From positions 191,345-255,344 of the forward strand of contig CAJNYD010000596.1 in assembly GCA_905331295.1 (NCBI GenBank): DNA of 64,000 bases. The letters are read 5' to 3'. Below the pieces are notes generated by a model, which was not told the origin of the DNA, ran no database searches, and saw only the letters and a list, made by a program, of their open reading frames with translations. Both the position numbers and the translations under genes were made by a program. This DNA comes from Rotaria socialis. Lineage: Eukaryota. Below are positions 39,350 to 51,132 of this stretch, piece by piece (the first letter of the stretch is position 1; the number at the start of each line of letters is the position of its first letter).

Positions 39350-41325
39350 ATGTTGAGGAATTCTCAACAATATTATTTGTTGACGAAAAGGAGTCGGCGT
39401 AGTGAACGATTGCATCCATATGGCTTCCTCATAATATCTAATTTTCAACCGAATCGGTAATTTTTGTTTTCTATTTAAAAAATGATTTATGCATCCACTT
39501 TATTTTTTCCTGTTTCAATAAAGATCATTTGTATTAACCAAAGGTCGATATAAAAAACCAGATCTTAATGCTCGAAATTATTATGATATTTTGGGTATAG
39601 AATCAACAGCTACACAAAAAGAAATACGTAAAGCATTTCTTAAATTATCAAAAGAAGTTAGTATATTGAAGGAATAAATATTCAAGTTATACGAAGAAAA
39701 ATTGCTTTGATTTGATTTTGTTAACGGAAAAAAAACAACTCGAAATTTCCAAGTAGAATCAGCATAATTATTCCTCAACTTCCTTATTATCATCATGTGA
39801 AGTTTAATAGTGTTTGAGACTTCTATCGGAAGGAGTTTCTCACTAAGCAATCATCAAAATCGTCTGTTCATGTTGACTTTTTGGATACGTGATGAGTTAA
39901 GTTGAATAATTGCATTAATAATAGCTGTATACTAAATATAAGAACCGAGTCGGTGTTTCCGTCTGGCGAAGGATAGACGAAGAAGTGAATAAGAACGACG
40001 ATTTATACCTATGTGCAATTACACAGTAGACTATTGTAAGTGAATCAGTAGAAATAGAATAATAGGTATATTCCAAACTTGATAAAAAAAGGCGTTTATC
40101 ATTTTGTCAAAATTTCTCATCGGGAATAAAATATAAATAGTGAAACGAAAGATTCCATTGAAGTTCTCCTTTAAATGCAAAAGCCTTGAAGATTTCCTGG
40201 CAACTGTTCAATCGATTCGATAGAATAAGTACCTGTGAAGCCACAGACATCCTATTAAGCTTTGATTTTTTCGAAGGCACCGCTTTTCACATGTGCTCAG
40301 CATTTATACCTAACTACCTTCATATTTATTTGTAAAACATGTCGTGTAATTAACTATGTGTGTTCATTGAGTTTGTCTCAAATGTAAAACTTTCCCATCC
40401 GACATTCTCTCTCTCATCTGTATGATATTCATTGAGGACTGTATCCTTTTTTATTCATATTGAATTTACTCTGATTTTTATGAAATATGAAGCAAAAAAT
40501 AAATCTTGCCTTTTGTTTTATGTAGTATCATCCGGATTCTAATGCAACTGATAAATCTCTTCATTCAAAATTTGTAAAAATCAATGAAGCTTTCAGTATC
40601 CTCAGTAAACAATCTACACGTACTACCTATGATCAAAGTAAGAAATTAGAAAAAGAAAATATTATTATTGGAAATAAAATATTTTCTCCATGGCAGATCT
40701 TAACCCTTCAACTACTTCTCGGTATCGACCTCATTCCGAACAATATTCATCACCCCGTCAACAACCATATGGATCTCCATTTGATTGGACATCTACAAAC
40801 TCCAGTGATCGAGGTGCCAATCAACAACGATGGAACACAAATGAATCAGACTGGTAAGAAGGTGCGTTTTTTGTCAATAATATTATGAAAGTAAAAACTT
40901 TATGTTTGATGTTTCTATTTTTTTTGCAGGGGACCACCGAAATTCGATAAAACGTTTTTCGATATGCTTCGTCGAAAAATGGAACAAGATCGAAAACGTG
41001 CAAATGAACATTCATTCAGATCATCATCGTCCAGTGCACTAGCTCATAGATATTTTGGTCCATTTTCCATTATTTCATTTCTTATTGGATTCGGGATTCT
41101 ACTACATGCATTGCAATGGCGGTAAAGAAAATTCGAACTGATTACTTTTTTAGAAATGATTAGTTTTTTTCTAGTATTGCAAGATACAGTGATCCGACAT
41201 TTGCTGTTGATCCACGAACTCGCAGTTATCATGCTTATCGTGAATGGCAACGATTGAGTGCGCTTGAAGGTGCTGAGTCAATACCGATGCGCGATAGTTC
41301 GAAACGGCGAGAGGAAGAAAAATAA
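39350..41325 (+). CDS. DnaJ (J-domain) protein with putative mitochondrial presequence and C-terminal TM helix (DNAJC4-like), 6 exons
   Basis: NYYDILGIESTATQKEIRKAFLKLSKE|YHPD...FVKINEAFSILSKQSTRTTYD. Arg/Ser-rich N-terminus MLRNSQQYYLLTKRSRRS. Hydrophobic FSIISFLIGFGILLHAL. Stop at 41325. Confidence 0.88.
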
Positions 41326-42116
41326 ATTTTCTTTTTTATATTATATTATTTAAACAAATGAAATGAAAATAAAAACTGTGCTAGCCCTATATTTTTGGAA
41401 AAAATAACTTCATACTTTTCTATTTCTGATTCAGCGTGATACCGCTGTTCAGTATCGTATGAGACCGCACAAAAATCTAGTGATTATGGAGTATTGCTTA
41501 CTCCCTGTTCAAAACTGTACCATTTTCCACCAGATAAAATCACTGTTTCTATAATAGATGCATATTGGAAAAAAAGATACTAAGACACGAACGGTTTTTA
41601 GGACTTATTTTTGTTTATGAATATTTCTATTGATTTTCGTAATTATCATTCACTCGAAATCAAAGTCATTTTAAGGGCTGTTTGCTCGCACCATTCAAAA
41701 CTTAACTGCACGCAAGCTAAAAAATTTATAGAGTAAGAAACTCGGATAAATTGATCAAAACAGTCATGGATGACTCACGAAAATATGTGATGTAGAATGA
41801 ACTCTTAGTTAAAATAGTAAATATTTGAGAGCGTCGCAGTATGAATTGCAAGTTTCCTTTTTCTCTTCCTTCTGATACAAAATGTTGGAGAATTCCAACA
41901 TTGTTACTCATATATATATATATATATCATAGCAGTCTCAGTACTTCTTCACATTTCTCCACGGTCAACTCATACTGCAAATAGAAATTTTGGTTGCTAA
42001 AGTAGGTACTCCTCTCGAATGCATTGGAGATAGAAAATAGTGAAATTGATCTCACAACTAAATGTTCGTCAATATCAGGTCACTATAATTTCGATTTTCA
42101 ATTTGCAGCAGTGAAT

Positions 42117-42458
42117 ATGTCGTATACGTATCATCAAGGTTCAGGCAAGTTTTGTAATGACAATAATGGTCAGTGCACACCATCCTACAGCGGATTCAAG
42201 GGAGAAAAAGATCAAAAAAAATCAAATCAAGGTCCGATTCCAGAAGGAAAGTATACAATCGCAAACGGTTGTGGTGATGCGCATCAGAGATGTAATTTGA
42301 CACCTGATTCATCAAATAATATGTTCGGACGGTCGGCTTTCCAAATTCATGGTGACAACGGCAAAGGGGACCAATCAGCGAGCCATGGGTGTATAATTTT
42401 AAATCAAGGTGATCGAGCTGGCTTGAAAAAAGATGACAAAATTACAGTTAAGAAATAA
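42117..42458 (+). CDS. Tlde1/DUF2778-like (YkuD L,D-transpeptidase-fold) protein of probable bacterial origin, 113 aa
   Basis: From ATG 42117: YTYHQGSG, YSG, GPIPEGKYTI, L.PDSSNNMFGRSAFQIHGD, SASHGCIIL. These are the characteristic DUF2778 motifs with the catalytic His and Cys. The ORF-track extension to 42024 overlaps a likely 5'UTR intron (gt 42006 ... ag 42108/42111). Confidence 0.82.
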   Translation: MSYTYHQGSGKFCNDNNGQCTPSYSGFKGEKDQKKSNQGPIPEGKYTIANGCGDAHQRCNLTPDSSNNMFGRSAFQIHGDNGKGDQSASHGCIILNQGDRAGLKKDDKITVKK

Positions 42459-43870
42459 TTACTCGATCAATGTACAAGAAAAAAAAAGAATCCATTGAAT
42501 AATTCTACTGTTATTTTCTTCATTAATAAATCAAAACTAAAAACATGTAGACCGGATTGATATTCTTCTATAATCCAATAAACAGAAAGAATAAAAATTA
42601 GTTCCAATCTAGAATCTGATAAATCGGAACAAAATTGAAGCCATAGTGTCTTGAAAAACGATGGAAATTTGAACATTTTTTAAGAAGATGTTGAATACTG
42701 AATCATGCATTGACCGTACATGATTTTGTGTTTCATTTGCTTCGAGAAATTTTCGACTAAATTTACTGCTATCGTCGTTATTGCAATAATACACACTATA
42801 GATGAGGGTGCTGCCATTTTTATGGAATATGTACTAAGAACGGATACGCGACAACCATTTATCATAGACAGTTAGTATGCGAAGTGGTGTGTACCTTAAG
42901 TTCTCATTCGGATGCCAATTTATAAGAGTATGTAGAGAATTCTCGAATCGAATTCAAAACAAATATCAAATATACATTAGAAGGTTGACGAGATTAAAGT
43001 AGCTCCTCTCGGGCAACGTTTTATTGAATACATGTGCGCGGTATAATTTTCAAGTTAGATGTCACTGATTGTCATTTTCCTTCTCGAATACACAGTGTTG
43101 CATTATTTGTTTTTGGAGAATAATTCAAATTAAAAAAGCAAGCAGTGCTGAACGAATAGCAGACGCAAAATAGGTGGTATATTGACTTCTTTTTCTTAAT
43201 TGTTTGCCTGAAGCTAAGCATGCAGAATTAATTTGAAAAGAAGAATACAATAAGTAGGCAAACAAGTATTTAACCTGTAACATGCAAACAAATTCAGAAT
43301 GTTGTAAAAGTCAGTTATCCTCCGTAACCAATCAAAACATTCACACGAGATTTTTACGACTATACGACCGAATGCATAACTTTGAATAACTAGGCAAAAT
43401 AAGACTGTTATTATTATTCATATAAAAGTAGACCGTTCTTTTTATACTACAGTAAAAAAATTGCTACTTCCTTTTTTTCTTTTGTGCCACTGGTTACTAT
43501 GTAAATTACCTATTTAAATTGCATGGAATGATCTCAAGAGAAAGCGAACATCAAACAGTAGGAAGGTGAGGACATGCGACGTTTTACTTGTATTTTTTTT
43601 ACAATACAAAAGTATAGAGAAAGGTAAGAATTTTCGTCACACAAGTTAAAATTTTACAATCCATAGTTAAGTGTTTTTCGTGATGGGTTCATAATTATGA
43701 GAAAAACCGACAATTTTTGAAGACATCTAGTCACTCCAATATCATAGCACAAGAAACACAACTTGCCAGTCATCAATAACTCCTTCGACATGTCTGAAAG
43801 CATATAAATAGAAACGTTTCTCATGCAGAATTGTTTTGATTTTAGATTTTCATACACTTACTTCAGCGAC

Positions 43871-46262
43871 ATGGGCGTCATACTTCCAAAGCCACGTGGA
43901 CAAAGAAACTGCGCAAATAAAAAAAATTCAATTAAATATTGCGAAGGAAAGATTGTTCAAAATTTTGTTCTTATTTGGTTAGATACAGGTATAACTGAAA
44001 TGCAAAAAGATTGCCCCTATACTATTTCTGAATTGAACAAAATCTATAATTCAATTACACTATATACTGATTTGGATGATTGTCGCAAATTCATTGAAAA
44101 GCCACGAGATGAACAAATATTTCTTATTGTATCCGGAAAACTTGGAGAAAAACTAGTACCACTTGTTCACAAGTACGCTCGACTCGATTCCATTTATGTA
44201 TTTTGTGGCCAACCGGATGCTCACAAATGGACTCAACAATGGAAAAAGATAAAACTTGTTGTCAATCAAATTGAACCTATTTGTGAAGCCCTCGTAATCG
44301 ATGCTGCANAAATTCATTGAAAAGCCACGAGATGAACAAATATTTCTTATTGTATCCGGAAAACTTGGAGAAAAACTAGTACCACTTGTTCACAAGTACG
44401 CTCGACTCGATTCCATTTATGTATTTTGTGGCCAACCGGATGCTCACAAATGGACTCAACAATGGAAAAAGATAAAACTTGTTGTCAATCAAATTGAACC
44501 TATTTGTGAAGCCCTCGTAATCGATGCTGCACAATGTGAAGAAGATTTAACCCCAACCAGTATTTTGCCGTTGAACGAATCTTCGAGTCAATCGTTAGAA
44601 CAAATTAATGCGTCATTTATGTATTCGCAATTGATAAACGAAATTCTTTTGCAAATGAACTATAATACACGAGAAATAGACGTCCTGGTTGATTTTTGTC
44701 GACAAATTTACAAGGAAAATGAGGCTCAACTAAACATTATAAATGAGTTCCGAATTCATTATCAAAAGGAAACATCTATATGGTGGTACACTCGTGAATG
44801 CTTTGCATATCGAATGCTCAATCGTAGTTTGAGAACGTTTGATATTAATATTATTTCTATGATGGGCTTCTTCTTGAAAGATATTCACAATCAAATCAAA
44901 GACATAAATTCAAAAATATCCAAGCGAACCGGACCATTCGTCGTTTATCGAGGTCAAGGAATGTTAAACGAAGAATTCGAAACAATACGCAATAGCATTG
45001 GTGGTCTATTGGCATTCAATAGCTTTCTTTCAACCAGTGAGGATATGAATGTTGCTATGAAATTTGCACAAAAGTCTGCAGGTCGAGAGGGTAAAGCCTC
45101 TGTTCTATTTGAAATAGAAGTTGATCCAGCGTTAACATTGACTCCATACGCTTCGCTAGATAATGTTATTACGTGTCAACCCAAGGAAAAAGAAATTCTC
45201 TTCTCAATGGATACCGTGTTTCGCATCTATGAAGTCAAGGAAGATAATGATCATATCTGGAAAATTAAGCTGAAATCAGTAAGCGATAAAGACTTGGCAA
45301 TAACACGATTAACCGAACAAATTAGATCAGAAATTGGCGAGGGGAGCCCAATCGATCGATTAGGTCGACTAATGATTAAATTAGACGAGTTTGAAAAAGC
45401 TGAAGCATTCTATCAAATATTAGCTGAATCGACAACCACAGATGATAAGAAAAAATATGCTTGGATACGTAATCAATTTGGATATATTAGATATAAACAA
45501 GGCAGGTATAAGGACGCTCTCTCATTGTATCAAGAAGCAATGCAAATTCAAGAGAAATTGAATGATGGAAGGAATCTTGATCTAGCAACTACATATAATA
45601 ATATGGGACTTCTGTATACAGAATTGAATGACACTTCTAAAGCACTTTCATATCACGAAAAGGCACTTTCCATACGAGAAAGAGATTGCGATGTAAGCCT
45701 TGCAGATTTAGCCTCAACTTATAACAATATCGGACTCGTATATGATCAACGAAATGATTTTTCAGCTGCATTATCACACTATGGAAAGGCACTCCCAATA
45801 TATAAAAAATGTCTCCCAGTCAATCATCCTTGGGAGGCGACGCTTTATTATAATATCGGCCTTGCTGAAGTATTATTGGGGAAACACATGGTGGGACTTG
45901 AAAATCTGCAGAAAGCAAGAAACATACGGAAAATATCATTACCATCTAACCATCCATCGATAGCATCTGTATGCAATAGCATCGGTGATACATATCAAGA
46001 AATAAGAGATTATCCAAATGCACTCAAATTTTATGAAGAGGCATTAGATGTTGGAAGTCGGGTTTCACATGTCAATTACTCAAATTTAGCTTTAACTTAT
46101 TACAGAGCGTCAAAAATATTGGACAATCTCAAACAACTTGATAAAGCGCTAGAATATGCTGAACTTGCTGTGAAAACAGTTGACAAGTCATGCACACCAA
46201 ATGATACAGATAAAGTAAGGTTTAAAGAACATTTGGAACAACTTCAAACAAGACAATCATGA
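43871..46262 (+). CDS. Receiver-like + ART + TPR protein, tandem copy 1 (frame broken by an assembly join at N44309)
   Basis: ATG 43871 (MGVILPK). Motifs VLIWLD, VYRGQ, FLSTS, EKEILF and TPRs. Removing the duplicated 222 bp plus the N joins the two ORFs into one protein colinear with 48967-51132. Confidence 0.85.
44087..44531. other. Assembly artefact: exact 222-bp direct duplication around a single N
   Basis: 44087-44308 is repeated at 44310-44531 with N at 44309, typical of unmerged contig overlap. Confidence 0.85.
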
Positions 46263-48966: not shown

Positions 48967-51132
48967 ATGGGAATGGGAAACAGTACACCAAAACCAGTTT
49001 CACGGAGAACGCGTGCAAATACAAATAATTCAATTAAATATTGCGAAGGAAAGATTGTTCAAAATTTTGTTCTCATTTGGTTAGATTCGACTATCGATAT
49101 GATGCAACAAGACTGCCAGTATACTATGGCTGAATTATACAAAATCTGTAATTCAATTACATTATTTACTGATTTGGAAGAGTGTCGTAAATTCATTGAA
49201 AAGCCACGAGATGAACAAATATTTCTTATTGTATCCGGAAAACTTGGAGAAAAACTAGTACCACTTGTTCACAAGTACGCTCGACTCGATTCCATTTATG
49301 TATTTTGTGGCCAACCGGATGCTCACAAATGGACTCAACAATGGAAAAAGATAAAACTTGTTGTCAATCAAATTGAACCTATTTGTGAAGCCCTCGTAAT
49401 CGATGCTGCACAATGTGAAGAAGATTTAACCCCAACCAGTATTTTGCCGTTGAACGAATCTTCGAGTCAATCGTTAGAACAAATTAATGCGTCATTTATG
49501 TATTCGCAATTGATAAACGAAATTCTTTTGCAAATGAACTATAATACACGAGAAATAGACGTCCTGGTTGATTTTTGTCGACAAATTTACAAGGAAAATG
49601 AGGCTCAACTAAACATTATAAATGAGTTCCGAATTCATTATCAAAAGGAAACATCTATATGGTGGTACACTCGTGAATGCTTTGCATATCGAATGCTCAA
49701 TCGTAGTTTGAGAACGTTTGATATTAATATTATTTCTATGATGGGCTTCTTCTTGAAAGATATTCACAATCAAATCAAAGACATAAATTCAAAAATATCC
49801 AAGCGAACCGGACCATTCGTCGTTTATCGAGGTCAAGGAATGTTAAACGAAGAATTCGAAACAATACGCAATAGCATTGGTGGTCTATTGGCATTCAATA
49901 GCTTTCTTTCAACCAGTGAGGATATGAATGTTGCTATGAAATTTGCACAAAAGTCTGCAGGTCGAGAGGGTAAAGCCTCTGTTCTATTTGAAATAGAAGT
50001 TGATCCAGCGTTAACATTGACTCCATACGCTTCGCTAGATAATGTTATTACGTGTCAACCCAAGGAAAAAGAAATTCTCTTCTCAATGGATACCGTGTTT
50101 CGCATCTATGAAGTCAAGGAAGATAATGATCATATCTGGAAAATTAAGCTGAAATCAGTAAGCGATAAAGACTTGGCAATAACACGATTAACCGAACAAA
50201 TTAGATCAGAAATTGGCGAGGGGAGCCCAATCGATCGATTAGGTCGACTAATGATTAAATTAGACGAGTTTGAAAAAGCTGAAGCATTCTATCAAATATT
50301 AGCTGAATCGACAACCACAGATGATAAGAAAAAATATGCTTGGATACGTAATCAATTTGGATATATTAGATATAAACAAGGCAGGTATAAGGACGCTCTC
50401 TCATTGTATCAAGAAGCAATGCAAATTCAAGAGAAATTGAATGATGGAAGGAATCTTGATCTAGCAACTACATATAATAATATGGGACTTCTGTATACAG
50501 AATTGAATGACACTTCTAAAGCACTTTCATATCACGAAAAGGCACTTTCCATACGAGAAAGAGATTGCGATGTAAGCCTTGCAGATTTAGCCTCAACTTA
50601 TAACAATATCGGACTCGTATATGATCAACGAAATGATTTTTCAGCTGCATTATCACACTATGAAAAGGCACTCCCAATATATAAAAGATGTCTCCCAGCC
50701 AATCATCCTTGGGAGGCTACGCTTTATAATAATATTGGCCTGACTGAAGTATCACTGGGCGAACACATGGTGGGACTTGAAAATCTGCAGAAAGCAAGAA
50801 AAGTACGAAAAAGATCATTACCATCTAATCATCCATCGATAGCATCTGTATGCAACAGCATCGGTGATGCATATCAAAAAATAAAAGATTATCTAAATGC
50901 ACTCAAATTTTATGAAGAAGCATTTGATGTTGAAAGTCGAGTTACGCATGTCAATTACTCATATTTAGCTTTAACTTATTACAGAGCGTCAAAAATATTG
51001 GACAATCTCGAACAACTTGATAAAGCGCTAAAATATGCTGAAGTTGCTGTGAAAACAGTTGACAAGTCATGCACACCAAATGATACAGATAAAGTAAGGT
51101 TTAAAGAACATTTGGAAAAACTTCAAGCATGA
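48967..51132 (+). CDS. Receiver-like + ART + TPR protein, tandem copy 2
   Basis: 721-aa intact ORF with the same motifs (VYRGQ, FLSTS, EKEILF) and about six TPRs. N-terminus MGMGNS. Confidence 0.92.
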   Translation: MGMGNSTPKPVSRRTRANTNNSIKYCEGKIVQNFVLIWLDSTIDMMQQDCQYTMAELYKICNSITLFTDLEECRKFIEKPRDEQIFLIVSGKLGEKLVPLVHKYARLDSIYVFCGQPDAHKWTQQWKKIKLVVNQIEPICEALVIDAAQCEEDLTPTSILPLNESSSQSLEQINASFMYSQLINEILLQMNYNTREIDVLVDFCRQIYKENEAQLNIINEFRIHYQKETSIWWYTRECFAYRMLNRSLRTFDINIISMMGFFLKDIHNQIKDINSKISKRTGPFVVYRGQGMLNEEFETIRNSIGGLLAFNSFLSTSEDMNVAMKFAQKSAGREGKASVLFEIEVDPALTLTPYASLDNVITCQPKEKEILFSMDTVFRIYEVKEDNDHIWKIKLKSVSDKDLAITRLTEQIRSEIGEGSPIDRLGRLMIKLDEFEKAEAFYQILAESTTTDDKKKYAWIRNQFGYIRYKQGRYKDALSLYQEAMQIQEKLNDGRNLDLATTYNNMGLLYTELNDTSKALSYHEKALSIRERDCDVSLADLASTYNNIGLVYDQRNDFSAALSHYEKALPIYKRCLPANHPWEATLYNNIGLTEVSLGEHMVGLENLQKARKVRKRSLPSNHPSIASVCNSIGDAYQKIKDYLNALKFYEEAFDVESRVTHVNYSYLALTYYRASKILDNLEQLDKALKYAEVAVKTVDKSCTPNDTDKVRFKEHLEKLQA

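What the first reader, a model, noticed from the sequence alone, without database searches (positions are those of the whole stretch)
42117..42458. Bacterial T6SS-type anti-peptidoglycan effector (Tlde1/DUF2778 family) apparently domesticated in an animal genome
Seen: an intact, intronless 113-aa ORF with GPIPxGxY, GRSxFxIHG and H-x13-C (SHGC) motifs. It sits between an intron-rich metazoan DnaJ gene and ART-TPR genes, with a (TA)n/TATA-like tract upstream and a plausible spliceosomal intron in its 5'UTR. Known: DUF2778/Tlde1 proteins are L,D-transpeptidase-fold toxins delivered by type VI secretion that corrupt peptidoglycan stems. Animals make no peptidoglycan. Domesticated amidase effectors (Dae) are a precedent from a different effector family. 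Inference: this is a horizontally acquired antibacterial or bacterial-food-digesting enzyme. Four extra Cys (CNDNNGQC, GC...RC) could form disulfides. No signal peptide and no immunity gene are visible.
Basis: partly seen in the sequence, partly recalled or inferred. Interest (0 to 1): 0.88.

Follow-up and report, generated by a model that had tools for sequence, protein, structure and literature searches.

The report
Bacterial wall-cutting enzyme domesticated by rotifers
A bdelloid rotifer carries, splices and expresses a foreign gene of the Tlde1 (L,D-transpeptidase-fold) family that is shared across bdelloid genera and likely trims the cell wall of bacteria the animal eats or harbours, probably working inside its cells rather than as a secreted toxin.

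Summary
Window 42117-42458 encodes a 113-aa Tlde1/DUF2778 protein (Pfam 41.5 bits, cut-off 30.1; predicted fold closest to Tlde1a, Z 12.3) with an intact His78/Cys92 dyad. It is a real rotifer gene. One DNA contig joins it to the intron-rich DnaJ gene. RNA-type contigs from two studies splice the 107-nt 5'UTR intron, and one ends in poly(A). dN/dS is 0.09-0.24. Relatives in Rotaria, Adineta and Didymodactylos form one clade, so one old transfer is likely.

The 'T6SS' label is unproven. The gene belongs to a compact ~120-aa subfamily found as Rhs tips, Hcp-linked effectors and beside phage holins, and the trees cannot pick the donor.

New here: (1) a bdelloid sister class whose 21 of 21 full-length rows end in a CaaX-like box; (2) no signal peptide is possible in this transcript (in-frame stop upstream); (3) a conserved TTGGARWWTTCCAA palindrome beside the TATA tract; (4) homologues in Dictyostelium and a marine protist transcript. 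Best reading: a leaderless peptidoglycan L,D-carboxypeptidase acting inside rotifer cells. Activity is untested, and Tlde1a's capping tryptophans are missing. My searches found no paper describing it; one supplementary table lists it without comment.

The parts
41885..41898 (+). Palindromic upstream element TTGGAGAATTCCAA (consensus TTGGARWWTTCCAA), inside a longer inverted repeat at about 41881-41902; likely a transcription-factor site (kappaB/NFAT-like by recall, factor unknown)
   Evidence: Only exact match in 64 kb; shuffles mean 0.04, 3 of 100 with a match. Present in 3 of 195 fetched loci, all three carrying this gene. About 1e-4 expected per 400 bp.
41910..41927 (+). (TA)n tract in TATA-box position, about 25-40 nt before the first transcribed base seen
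   Evidence: Sequence; transcript contig begins at 41951 (contigs cannot fix a start site). TATA at the same 24-nt distance from the element in L172.
41951..42001 (+). Non-coding exon 1 (no ATG; holds an in-frame TAA)
   Evidence: X9 record 8 and X10 record 3
42002..42108 (+). 107-nt spliceosomal intron in the 5'UTR (GT..AG)
   Evidence: Joint 42001>42109 in X9 and X10, two studies; unspliced in DNA contig X8; a 92%-identical poly(A) transcript in run X19 (organism D) begins at 42110, at this acceptor
42117..42458 (+). CDS of the 113-aa short Tlde1/DUF2778 protein (P0001): R72, H78-G79-D80, S89-H90-G91-C92; Cys pairs 13/20 and 52/59
42459..42547 (+). 3'UTR with AATAAA at 42525 and poly(A) site at about 42547
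   Evidence: Poly(A) loose end at 42547 in X9 and at 42544 in X19
39523..41404 (+). Flanking host J-domain (DnaJ) gene, part covered by transcripts; a separate polyadenylated transcript (context only)
   Evidence: Four GT..AG joints and poly(A) at 41404; adjacent to the Tlde1 gene in R. magnacalcarata too, where one gene model, P0091, fuses the two
43823..46262 (+). Flanking ART-TPR gene copy 1, interrupted by an assembly N at 44309 with a duplicated stretch (context only)

Best explanation
This is a spliced, polyadenylated rotifer gene of foreign origin, conserved across bdelloid genera, whose product is predicted to be a leaderless L,D-carboxypeptidase/transpeptidase that likely trims D-Ala4 from the peptidoglycan stems of ingested or invading bacteria inside the animal's cells. 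Shown: integration, intron, poly(A), purifying selection, a bdelloid clade split into a 113-aa class (this gene) and a 121-aa CaaX class, and no leader. Predicted: L,D-transpeptidase fold, with the catalytic residues conserved in sequence. Inferred: (1) one transfer before Rotaria, Adineta and Didymodactylos split, from the compact Tlde1 subfamily (Rhs/T6SS toxin tip or phage lysis-region gene; donor unresolved); (2) Cys92, activated by His78, attacks the mDAP3-D-Ala4 bond and the acyl-enzyme is resolved by water or a D-amino acid held by Arg72, as in Tlde1a; (3) because the protein is made without a leader and its sister class carries a cytosolic prenylation signal, it meets peptidoglycan on the cytosolic side (imported muropeptides, or bacteria in or escaping from vacuoles), serving wall breakdown and defence; (4) the upstream palindrome links it to a stress or immune regulator.
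For: Pfam over cut-off. AF2 pLDDT 88. Top PDB matches are Tlde1a: Foldseek ranks 1-3; VIA Z 12.3, rmsd 2.4, 104 aligned. R72, H78, G79, D80, S89, G91, C92 invariant in 67 of 67 rows; by motif offset they match Tlde1a R115, H121, S128, G130, C131, and Tlde1a mutants at these positions lost toxicity. Splicing and poly(A); linkage. dN/dS 0.09-0.24 in 5 of 6 pairs, 1 saturated. Bdelloid clade 100/99. Named members in R. socialis, R. magnacalcarata, R. sordida, R. sp. Silwood1/2, A. vaga, A. ricciae, A. steineri and D. carnosus. CaaX-like end in 21 of 21 full-length class-B rows, 3 of them N-extended near-duplicates. Prokaryotic kin sit in contexts that imply wall targets: beside holins or lysozymes, Hcp, or as Rhs tips. 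Rotifers hold other foreign wall-turnover genes: anmK, alanine racemase in A. vaga and peptidoglycan-catabolic enzymes.
Against: No activity data for any member of this short subfamily was seen. P0001 has no Trp and is 113 aa against 172, so Tlde1a's capping subdomain (W90 needed for toxicity; W93, R99) has no counterpart. H90 (= H129) varies: H in 15 of 24 bdelloid-clade rows. Cys52/59 are kept in 24 of 24 class-A rows and 0 of 43 prokaryotic rows, and Cys13/20 are kept or lost together (18 both, 4 neither, 2 rows with poor N-terminal models set aside). That pattern suggests disulfides and so an oxidising, non-cytosolic place. One environmental model (P0025) has a hydrophobic N-terminus (1 clear case of 45 screened), probably a gene-caller artefact but not excluded. 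Two A. vaga genes are modestly expressed (baseMean 50 and 17) and unchanged in spaceflight; no induction data. The CaaX argument comes from the paralogue, not from this gene.
Confidence: 0.45

Rival explanations
1. Dae-like antibacterial: the same enzyme is released without a leader (unconventional or holocrine secretion) into the gut lumen, forms two disulfides there and weakens the walls of living bacteria. This is closest to the first reader's view.
For: Two independently varying Cys pairs; Cys52/59 present in class A and absent in the CaaX class. Tlde1a also has two disulfides and was toxic only when given a periplasmic leader. Basic pI 8.8. kappaB-like upstream element. One tree places the clade with Rhs toxin tips, 85/90.
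Against: No leader, whereas dae2 encodes a secreted protein. The CaaX class keeps Cys13/20, so that pair does not mark export. Without an injection system the enzyme must cross the outer membrane; Dae2 kills only in the periplasm or after permeabilisation.
Confidence: 0.25
2. Re-purposed enzyme: the Cys/His site now acts on a non-peptidoglycan substrate, such as D-amino-acid peptides made by the rotifer's own foreign synthetases, or serves as a beta-lactam sink or protein cross-linker.
For: Capping subdomain absent and the loop re-engineered with a Cys pair. Long stem branch to the bdelloid clade (0.45-1.0). Rotifers have D-amino-acid metabolism. LD-transpeptidases form beta-lactam adducts (entry titles).
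Against: The substrate-pocket Arg and the whole motif stay as in prokaryotic kin (67 of 67). Prokaryotic members of the same subfamily also lack the Tlde1a-length insert yet sit in wall-targeting contexts. Homologues appear in other bacterivorous eukaryotes.
Confidence: 0.2
3. Contaminant or decaying pseudogene.
For: Intronless CDS of prokaryotic type; the window has an assembly join at 44309.
Against: Spliced, polyadenylated transcripts in two studies; contig continuous with DnaJ; same neighbour in a second species; GC3 0.33 close to the host ART-TPR gene's 0.28; dN/dS far below 1; orthologues in three genera.
Confidence: 0.01

Closest known systems
Tlde1a (Tae5, STM14_0336) of Salmonella Typhimurium SPI-6 T6SS; PDB 7UMA/7UO3/7UO8
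   Same: Pfam PF10908; best structural match (Z 12.3, rmsd 2.4, 104 aligned); His/Ser/His/Gly/Cys motif and the exchange-pocket Arg by offset; no signal peptide; two Cys pairs in each.
   Different: 23-24% identity; 113 vs 172 aa; H-x13-C vs H-x9-C; no capping-subdomain Trp; no immunity gene or T6SS. A profile of this subfamily does not find Tlde1a in PDB sequences at E<=1.
Compact (~120 aa) DUF2778 subfamily of bacteria and phages (Rhs tips, Hcp-adjacent effectors, phage genes beside holins; e.g. Erwinia phage Yoloswag gp187)
   Same: 32-51% identity, shared GRSAFQIHGD...SASxGCIIL signature; best viral model TM 0.86.
   Different: Bdelloid proteins have a deletion after YSG, a shorter C-terminus, new Cys pairs and, in class B, a CaaX-like tail. 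No functional study of these prokaryotic members was seen.
Dae2 (domesticated Tae2 amidase effector) of ticks and mites
   Same: Bacterial wall-targeting effector family fixed in an animal genome (passages; original paper not read).
   Different: NlpC/P60 amidase fold, secreted, shown antibacterial. Here L,D-transpeptidase fold, leaderless, with a CaaX sister class, and untested.
Trichomonas vaginalis NlpC/P60 peptidoglycan hydrolases; tick and rotifer AnmK
   Same: [quoted passage not shown]
   Different: Different folds and bonds; five of nine Trichomonas proteins have predicted signal peptides and NlpC_A1 is on the cell surface.

Membership tests
Tlde1/DUF2778 domain (PF10908), L,D-transpeptidase fold | Score above the curated Pfam cut-off | tested here: met
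   41.5 bits vs 30.1
Tlde1/DUF2778 domain (PF10908), L,D-transpeptidase fold | L,D-transpeptidase beta-sandwich fold | tested here: met
   Predicted model pLDDT 88; 7UMA Z 12.3, rmsd 2.4, 104 aligned; other LDTs Z 9-11
Tlde1/DUF2778 domain (PF10908), L,D-transpeptidase fold | Catalytic motif H...[S/T]HGCh with shortened His-Cys spacing | tested here: met
   H78, S89-H90-G91-C92-I93; H, S, G, C invariant in 67 of 67 rows; motif defined
Tlde1/DUF2778 domain (PF10908), L,D-transpeptidase fold | L,D-carboxypeptidase or D-amino-acid exchange activity on muropeptides | not testable with these tools
   Needs an assay
Tlde1a-type enzyme | Exchange-pocket Arg (R115) six residues before the catalytic His | tested here: met
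   R72 invariant in 67 of 67; equivalence by motif offset, not by residue-level superposition
Tlde1a-type enzyme | Capping subdomain with W90/W93/R99 | tested here: not met
   No Trp in P0001; 113 vs 172 aa, 104 aligned; W90 needed for Tlde1a toxicity
T6SS effector Tlde1 (effector-immunity pair) | Encoded with a cognate immunity gene near T6SS/Hcp genes | tested here: not met
   Neighbours are DnaJ and ART-TPR
T6SS effector Tlde1 (effector-immunity pair) | Descent from a T6SS- or Rhs-delivered effector | tested here: inconclusive
   Sister group: mostly viral (SH-aLRT 94; 70/90) or Rhs tips (85/90). AU p 0.857 with long T6SS types and 0.294 with Hcp-clade rows
T6SS effector Tlde1 (effector-immunity pair) | Toxic in the target periplasm | not testable with these tools
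   Needs expression in laboratory E. coli
Domesticated antibacterial effector (Dae-type) | Integrated, expressed and under purifying selection in an animal | tested here: met
Domesticated antibacterial effector (Dae-type) | Secreted via a eukaryotic leader | tested here: not met
   In-frame stop upstream of the ATG in the spliced mRNA; CaaX-like tail in the sister class
Domesticated antibacterial effector (Dae-type) | NlpC/P60 amidase (Tae) family | tested here: not met
   Pfam and fold are Tlde1/LDT
Domesticated antibacterial effector (Dae-type) | Limits bacteria in vivo | not testable with these tools
   Needs knock-down and challenge

The most novel reading that the evidence does not exclude
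Bdelloid rotifers turned a bacterial or phage L,D-peptidase into a two-part, cell-autonomous anti-peptidoglycan system: a soluble disulfide-braced form (this gene) and a farnesylated membrane-targeted form, both under a conserved kappaB-like promoter element. It would attack or process bacterial walls from the cytosolic side, possibly feeding a salvage route with other foreign genes (AnmK, alanine racemase). The same subfamily was taken up separately by other bacterivorous eukaryotes (Dictyostelium, a marine protist). It would be the first L,D-transpeptidase-fold enzyme working in an animal, and a handle on rotifer immune signalling, which a 2018 review described as unreported.
Probability: 0.25. 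Interest if true: 0.85.

Novelty: new variant of a known kind. Interest (0 to 1): 0.62.

Why it matters
Animals make no peptidoglycan, and the cases of bacterial wall-attacking genes fixed in eukaryotes that I read about (Dae2, Trichomonas NlpC/P60) are secreted or surface amidases. This adds a different chemistry (L,D-peptidase fold), kept across bdelloid genera, duplicated and given eukaryotic controls: an intron, a conserved promoter element and a prenylation-like tail. It is small and easy to assay, so the question of how bdelloids digest or fight bacteria becomes directly testable. Foreign genes are common in bdelloids, so the transfer itself is not surprising; the apparent intracellular targeting is.

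Tried and rejected
No whole genome is held, so copy number in this species and the presence of a class-B gene here are untested. phmmer of P0001 against PDB sequences: 0 hits; the profile gave only weak LDT hits, E 0.2-0.3. No listed run was on record as RNA; expression rests on splicing and poly(A) in contigs. X17 laid nothing on the gene: no finding. X12 and X16 gave short pieces only. A phage donor looked supported in the first tree but was not retained: the constrained search found a tree 60 lnL better, and adding 11 Rhs-type tips, which I picked because they scored high against bdelloid-only profiles, moved the clade. Separate acquisition in protists is suggested by topology and indels but not shown: AU p 0.364; contamination of those records was not tested. 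The DnaJ-Tlde1 fusion model P0091 is rejected, since the two are separate poly(A) transcripts. N-terminal extensions in P0002, P0008, P0017, P0090 and P0343 are treated as gene-model artefacts (shown only for this locus). A heat-shock-element reading of the palindrome is disfavoured: the first unit is GAG and there is no third unit (sequence). The sigma-70 scan was at chance level, 9 vs 6.2 +/- 2.0, and is not relevant to a eukaryote. No paper on NF-kappaB in bdelloids was found. The search of earlier findings returned nothing. The wide structural search was not run. No complex prediction was run.

Full report
Observation. It scores 41.5 bits against Pfam Tlde1_dom (cut-off 30.1); YkuD is below cut-off. 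An AlphaFold2 model from a 67-row alignment has pLDDT 88. Its top PDB matches are the three Tlde1a structures, with Z 12.3, rmsd 2.4, 104 residues aligned and 23% identity; other L,D-transpeptidases follow at Z 9-11. The best viral model is closer still (TM 0.86).

It is a host gene. Contigs of runs X9 and X10 (two studies; 'RNA?' by the tool's guess) skip 42002-42108 at GT..AG. The X9 contig covers 41951-42547 and ends in poly(A); the upstream DnaJ gene is a separate spliced poly(A) transcript. DNA contig X8 record 9 runs unspliced from 40400 to 43447 with one mismatch (possibly the source sample). Run X19, from another organism code, holds a 92%-identical poly(A) transcript that starts at the same acceptor. 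GC3 is 0.33, against 0.28 for the neighbouring ART-TPR gene. Nei-Gojobori dN/dS among the window and three environmental loci is 0.09-0.24 in 5 of 6 pairs, with one saturated. In the spliced mRNA the first ATG is 42117 and an in-frame TAA lies four codons upstream, so this isoform cannot carry a signal peptide.

Distribution. A search with P0001 gave 84 hits among 109 candidates: 29 at 60-99% identity, then 55 at 32-51%. Named members of the close group come from Rotaria socialis, R. magnacalcarata, Didymodactylos carnosus and Adineta vaga, A. ricciae and A. steineri. The window is therefore a Rotaria, by inference R. socialis. The other close hits are unnamed metagenome proteins that I assign to bdelloids from the tree and from the AT-rich, eukaryote-like DNA of L172-L174.

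A second class. A bdelloid-only profile (217 hits, 120 listed) found a 121-aa class in R. sordida, R. sp. Silwood1/2, A. steineri and environmental contigs. All 21 full-length rows end CVLS, CILS, CTLS or CTIS (3 rows are N-extended near-duplicates; three 189-aa Silwood1 models that lack the catalytic Cys and the tail were left out). That this is a CaaX prenylation box, processed in the cytosol, is established knowledge recalled, not tested. Both classes share a deletion after YSG and form one clade at 100/99, which points to one transfer followed by duplication. Eyres et al. date the Rotaria crown alone at about 29 My (passages). Cys52/59 occur in 24 of 24 class-A rows, 0 of 43 prokaryotic rows and no class-B row shown; Cys13/20 are kept or lost together in class A (18 vs 4; two poor gene models set aside) and kept in class B. 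They behave as two independent pairs, not one four-Cys metal site (inference).

Promoter. TTGGARWWTTCCAA occurs once in 64 kb, at 41885-41898, just before the TA tract (3 of 100 shuffles had a match). It occurs in 3 of 195 fetched loci, exactly the three with a class-A gene. The pattern was drawn from the window, L172 and L173, so L174 (one exact and two looser sites) and the class-B locus L180 (one loose site) are the only hold-outs. Expectation is about 1e-4 per 400 bp, and dS between the window and L172 or L173 is about 1.7. Its likeness to kappaB/NFAT sites is recalled; the factor is unknown, and I found no paper on NF-kappaB in bdelloids.

Donor. The nearest prokaryotic kin are a compact ~120-aa subfamily (2,032 representatives at E<=1e-10), distinct from the ~150-175-aa Tlde1 forms that score 99-125 bits on Pfam. 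They occur in viral contigs (191 of 222 stretches), bacterial genomes (84 of 94) and 58 phage records. Among 88 crudely called neighbours from 29 loci near the rotifer clade in the first tree, holins hit in 4 loci, a lysozyme in 1, and virion genes in many. Among 45 hand-picked ORFs from the other loci (chosen mostly from 148 listed), Hcp hit in 4 loci, Rhs repeats in 2, a holin in 1 and muralytic enzymes in 3. Many longer homologues are Rhs tips. The trees disagree: mostly viral sisters (weak) or Rhs tips (85/90, with rows chosen for high score). AU tests reject neither long T6SS types (p 0.857, where the free search was poor) nor the Hcp-linked clade (p 0.294). About 120 columns cannot settle it. 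Dictyostelium purpureum (P0356) and an MMETSP transcript (P0148) carry prokaryote-type versions that fall elsewhere in the tree, though a shared origin is not rejected (p 0.364).

Mechanism. By motif offset R72, H78, S89, H90, G91 and C92 correspond to Tlde1a R115, H121, S128, H129, G130 and C131. All but H90 are invariant in 67 of 67 rows. Tlde1a cleaves mDAP3-D-Ala4 and exchanges D-amino acids, and needs these residues and the capping W90 for toxicity. The rotifer protein has no Trp and lacks that insert, as do its compact prokaryotic kin. I conclude it is likely an active L,D-peptidase on bacterial stems (about 0.7 summed over the first two explanations) and commit to intracellular action (0.45), over leaderless release to the gut (0.25), a new substrate (0.2) or contamination (0.01). 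The Cys pairs argue against the cytosol; the missing leader and the CaaX sister class argue for it.

Prior knowledge. Read: Lorente Cobo 2022 (10.1101/2022.08.05.502956, parts 1-4 of 7); Sibinelli-Sousa 2020 (10.1101/2020.02.18.954545, passages and section 8; 'rotifer' 0 times). Passages or term searches of PMC4632278, 10.1101/2021.09.04.458992, PMC5169069, PMC6043800, PMC11432056, PMC9144972, PMC12220480, PMC13342648, 10.1101/320382 and 10.64898/2026.03.13.711553. The Tlde1/DUF2778 search found 39 papers, 30 listed, none on eukaryotic homologues by title or abstract start. Searches found no report of this transfer. The supplement of PMC12220480 (cut when stored) lists two expressed A. vaga genes with PF10908 and an empty HGT cell, and the main text never mentions them. 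PMC11258130 supplements: 0 hits in 15 of 16 files. PMC4632278 lists one foreign 'ykud' transcript of R. tardigrada with an R. sordida orthologue, whose identity with this family I could not check. The supplement of the metazoan HGT compendium PMC13342648 and those of bioRxiv preprints could not be seen and may list it; most subscription journals are outside the library, and the original Dae paper was not read. UniRef already auto-names these proteins 'Tlde1 domain-containing'.

Verdict. Real, domesticated and apparently undescribed: a new variant of a known kind (foreign wall-targeting enzymes in eukaryotes), with a different fold and signs of intracellular rather than secreted use. Interest 0.62; 0.85 if the two-class cytosolic system is confirmed (probability 0.25).

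Noticed in passing
P0348-P0352, P0426-P0449; L180:1035-1395: Second bdelloid class (121 aa) of the same family ending in a CaaX-like box; the L180 copy is frameshifted in its contig and has a loose copy of the palindrome 38 nt before a TATA.
   Followed up: partly
P0356 (Dictyostelium purpureum), P0148 (MMETSP transcript): Compact Tlde1-like domains in two protists, prokaryote-type in indels; possible separate acquisitions by bacterivores, contamination not tested.
   Followed up: partly
L002, L012, L059, L076, L024 (holin neighbours); L057, L040, L080, L161 (muralytic neighbours): Phage members of the compact subfamily sit in lysis-like cassettes, suggesting an endolysin-type or accessory role for DUF2778 proteins; a 4.4-kb ssDNA phage (MG214764) also carries one.
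   Followed up: partly
L091, L101, L113, L116 and other genome loci: Compact members followed by a ~135-190-aa gene with a hydrophobic N-terminus and no Pfam hit (candidate immunity family), often beside Hcp.
   Followed up: partly
P0122/P0200 (Adineta ricciae), P0346/P0453 (Didymodactylos carnosus): Gene models with N-terminal extensions (Gly/Ser repeats; a possible MGxxxS start) that might hide further lipidation signals or be model errors.
   Followed up: no
window 44087-44500, N at 44309: Assembly join with a duplicated stretch that breaks ART-TPR copy 1; copy 2 at 48967-51132 is intact and nearly identical.
   Followed up: partly
window 39523-42458: A public gene model (P0091, R. magnacalcarata) fuses DnaJ and the Tlde1 gene; transcripts show two separate genes.
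   Followed up: yes
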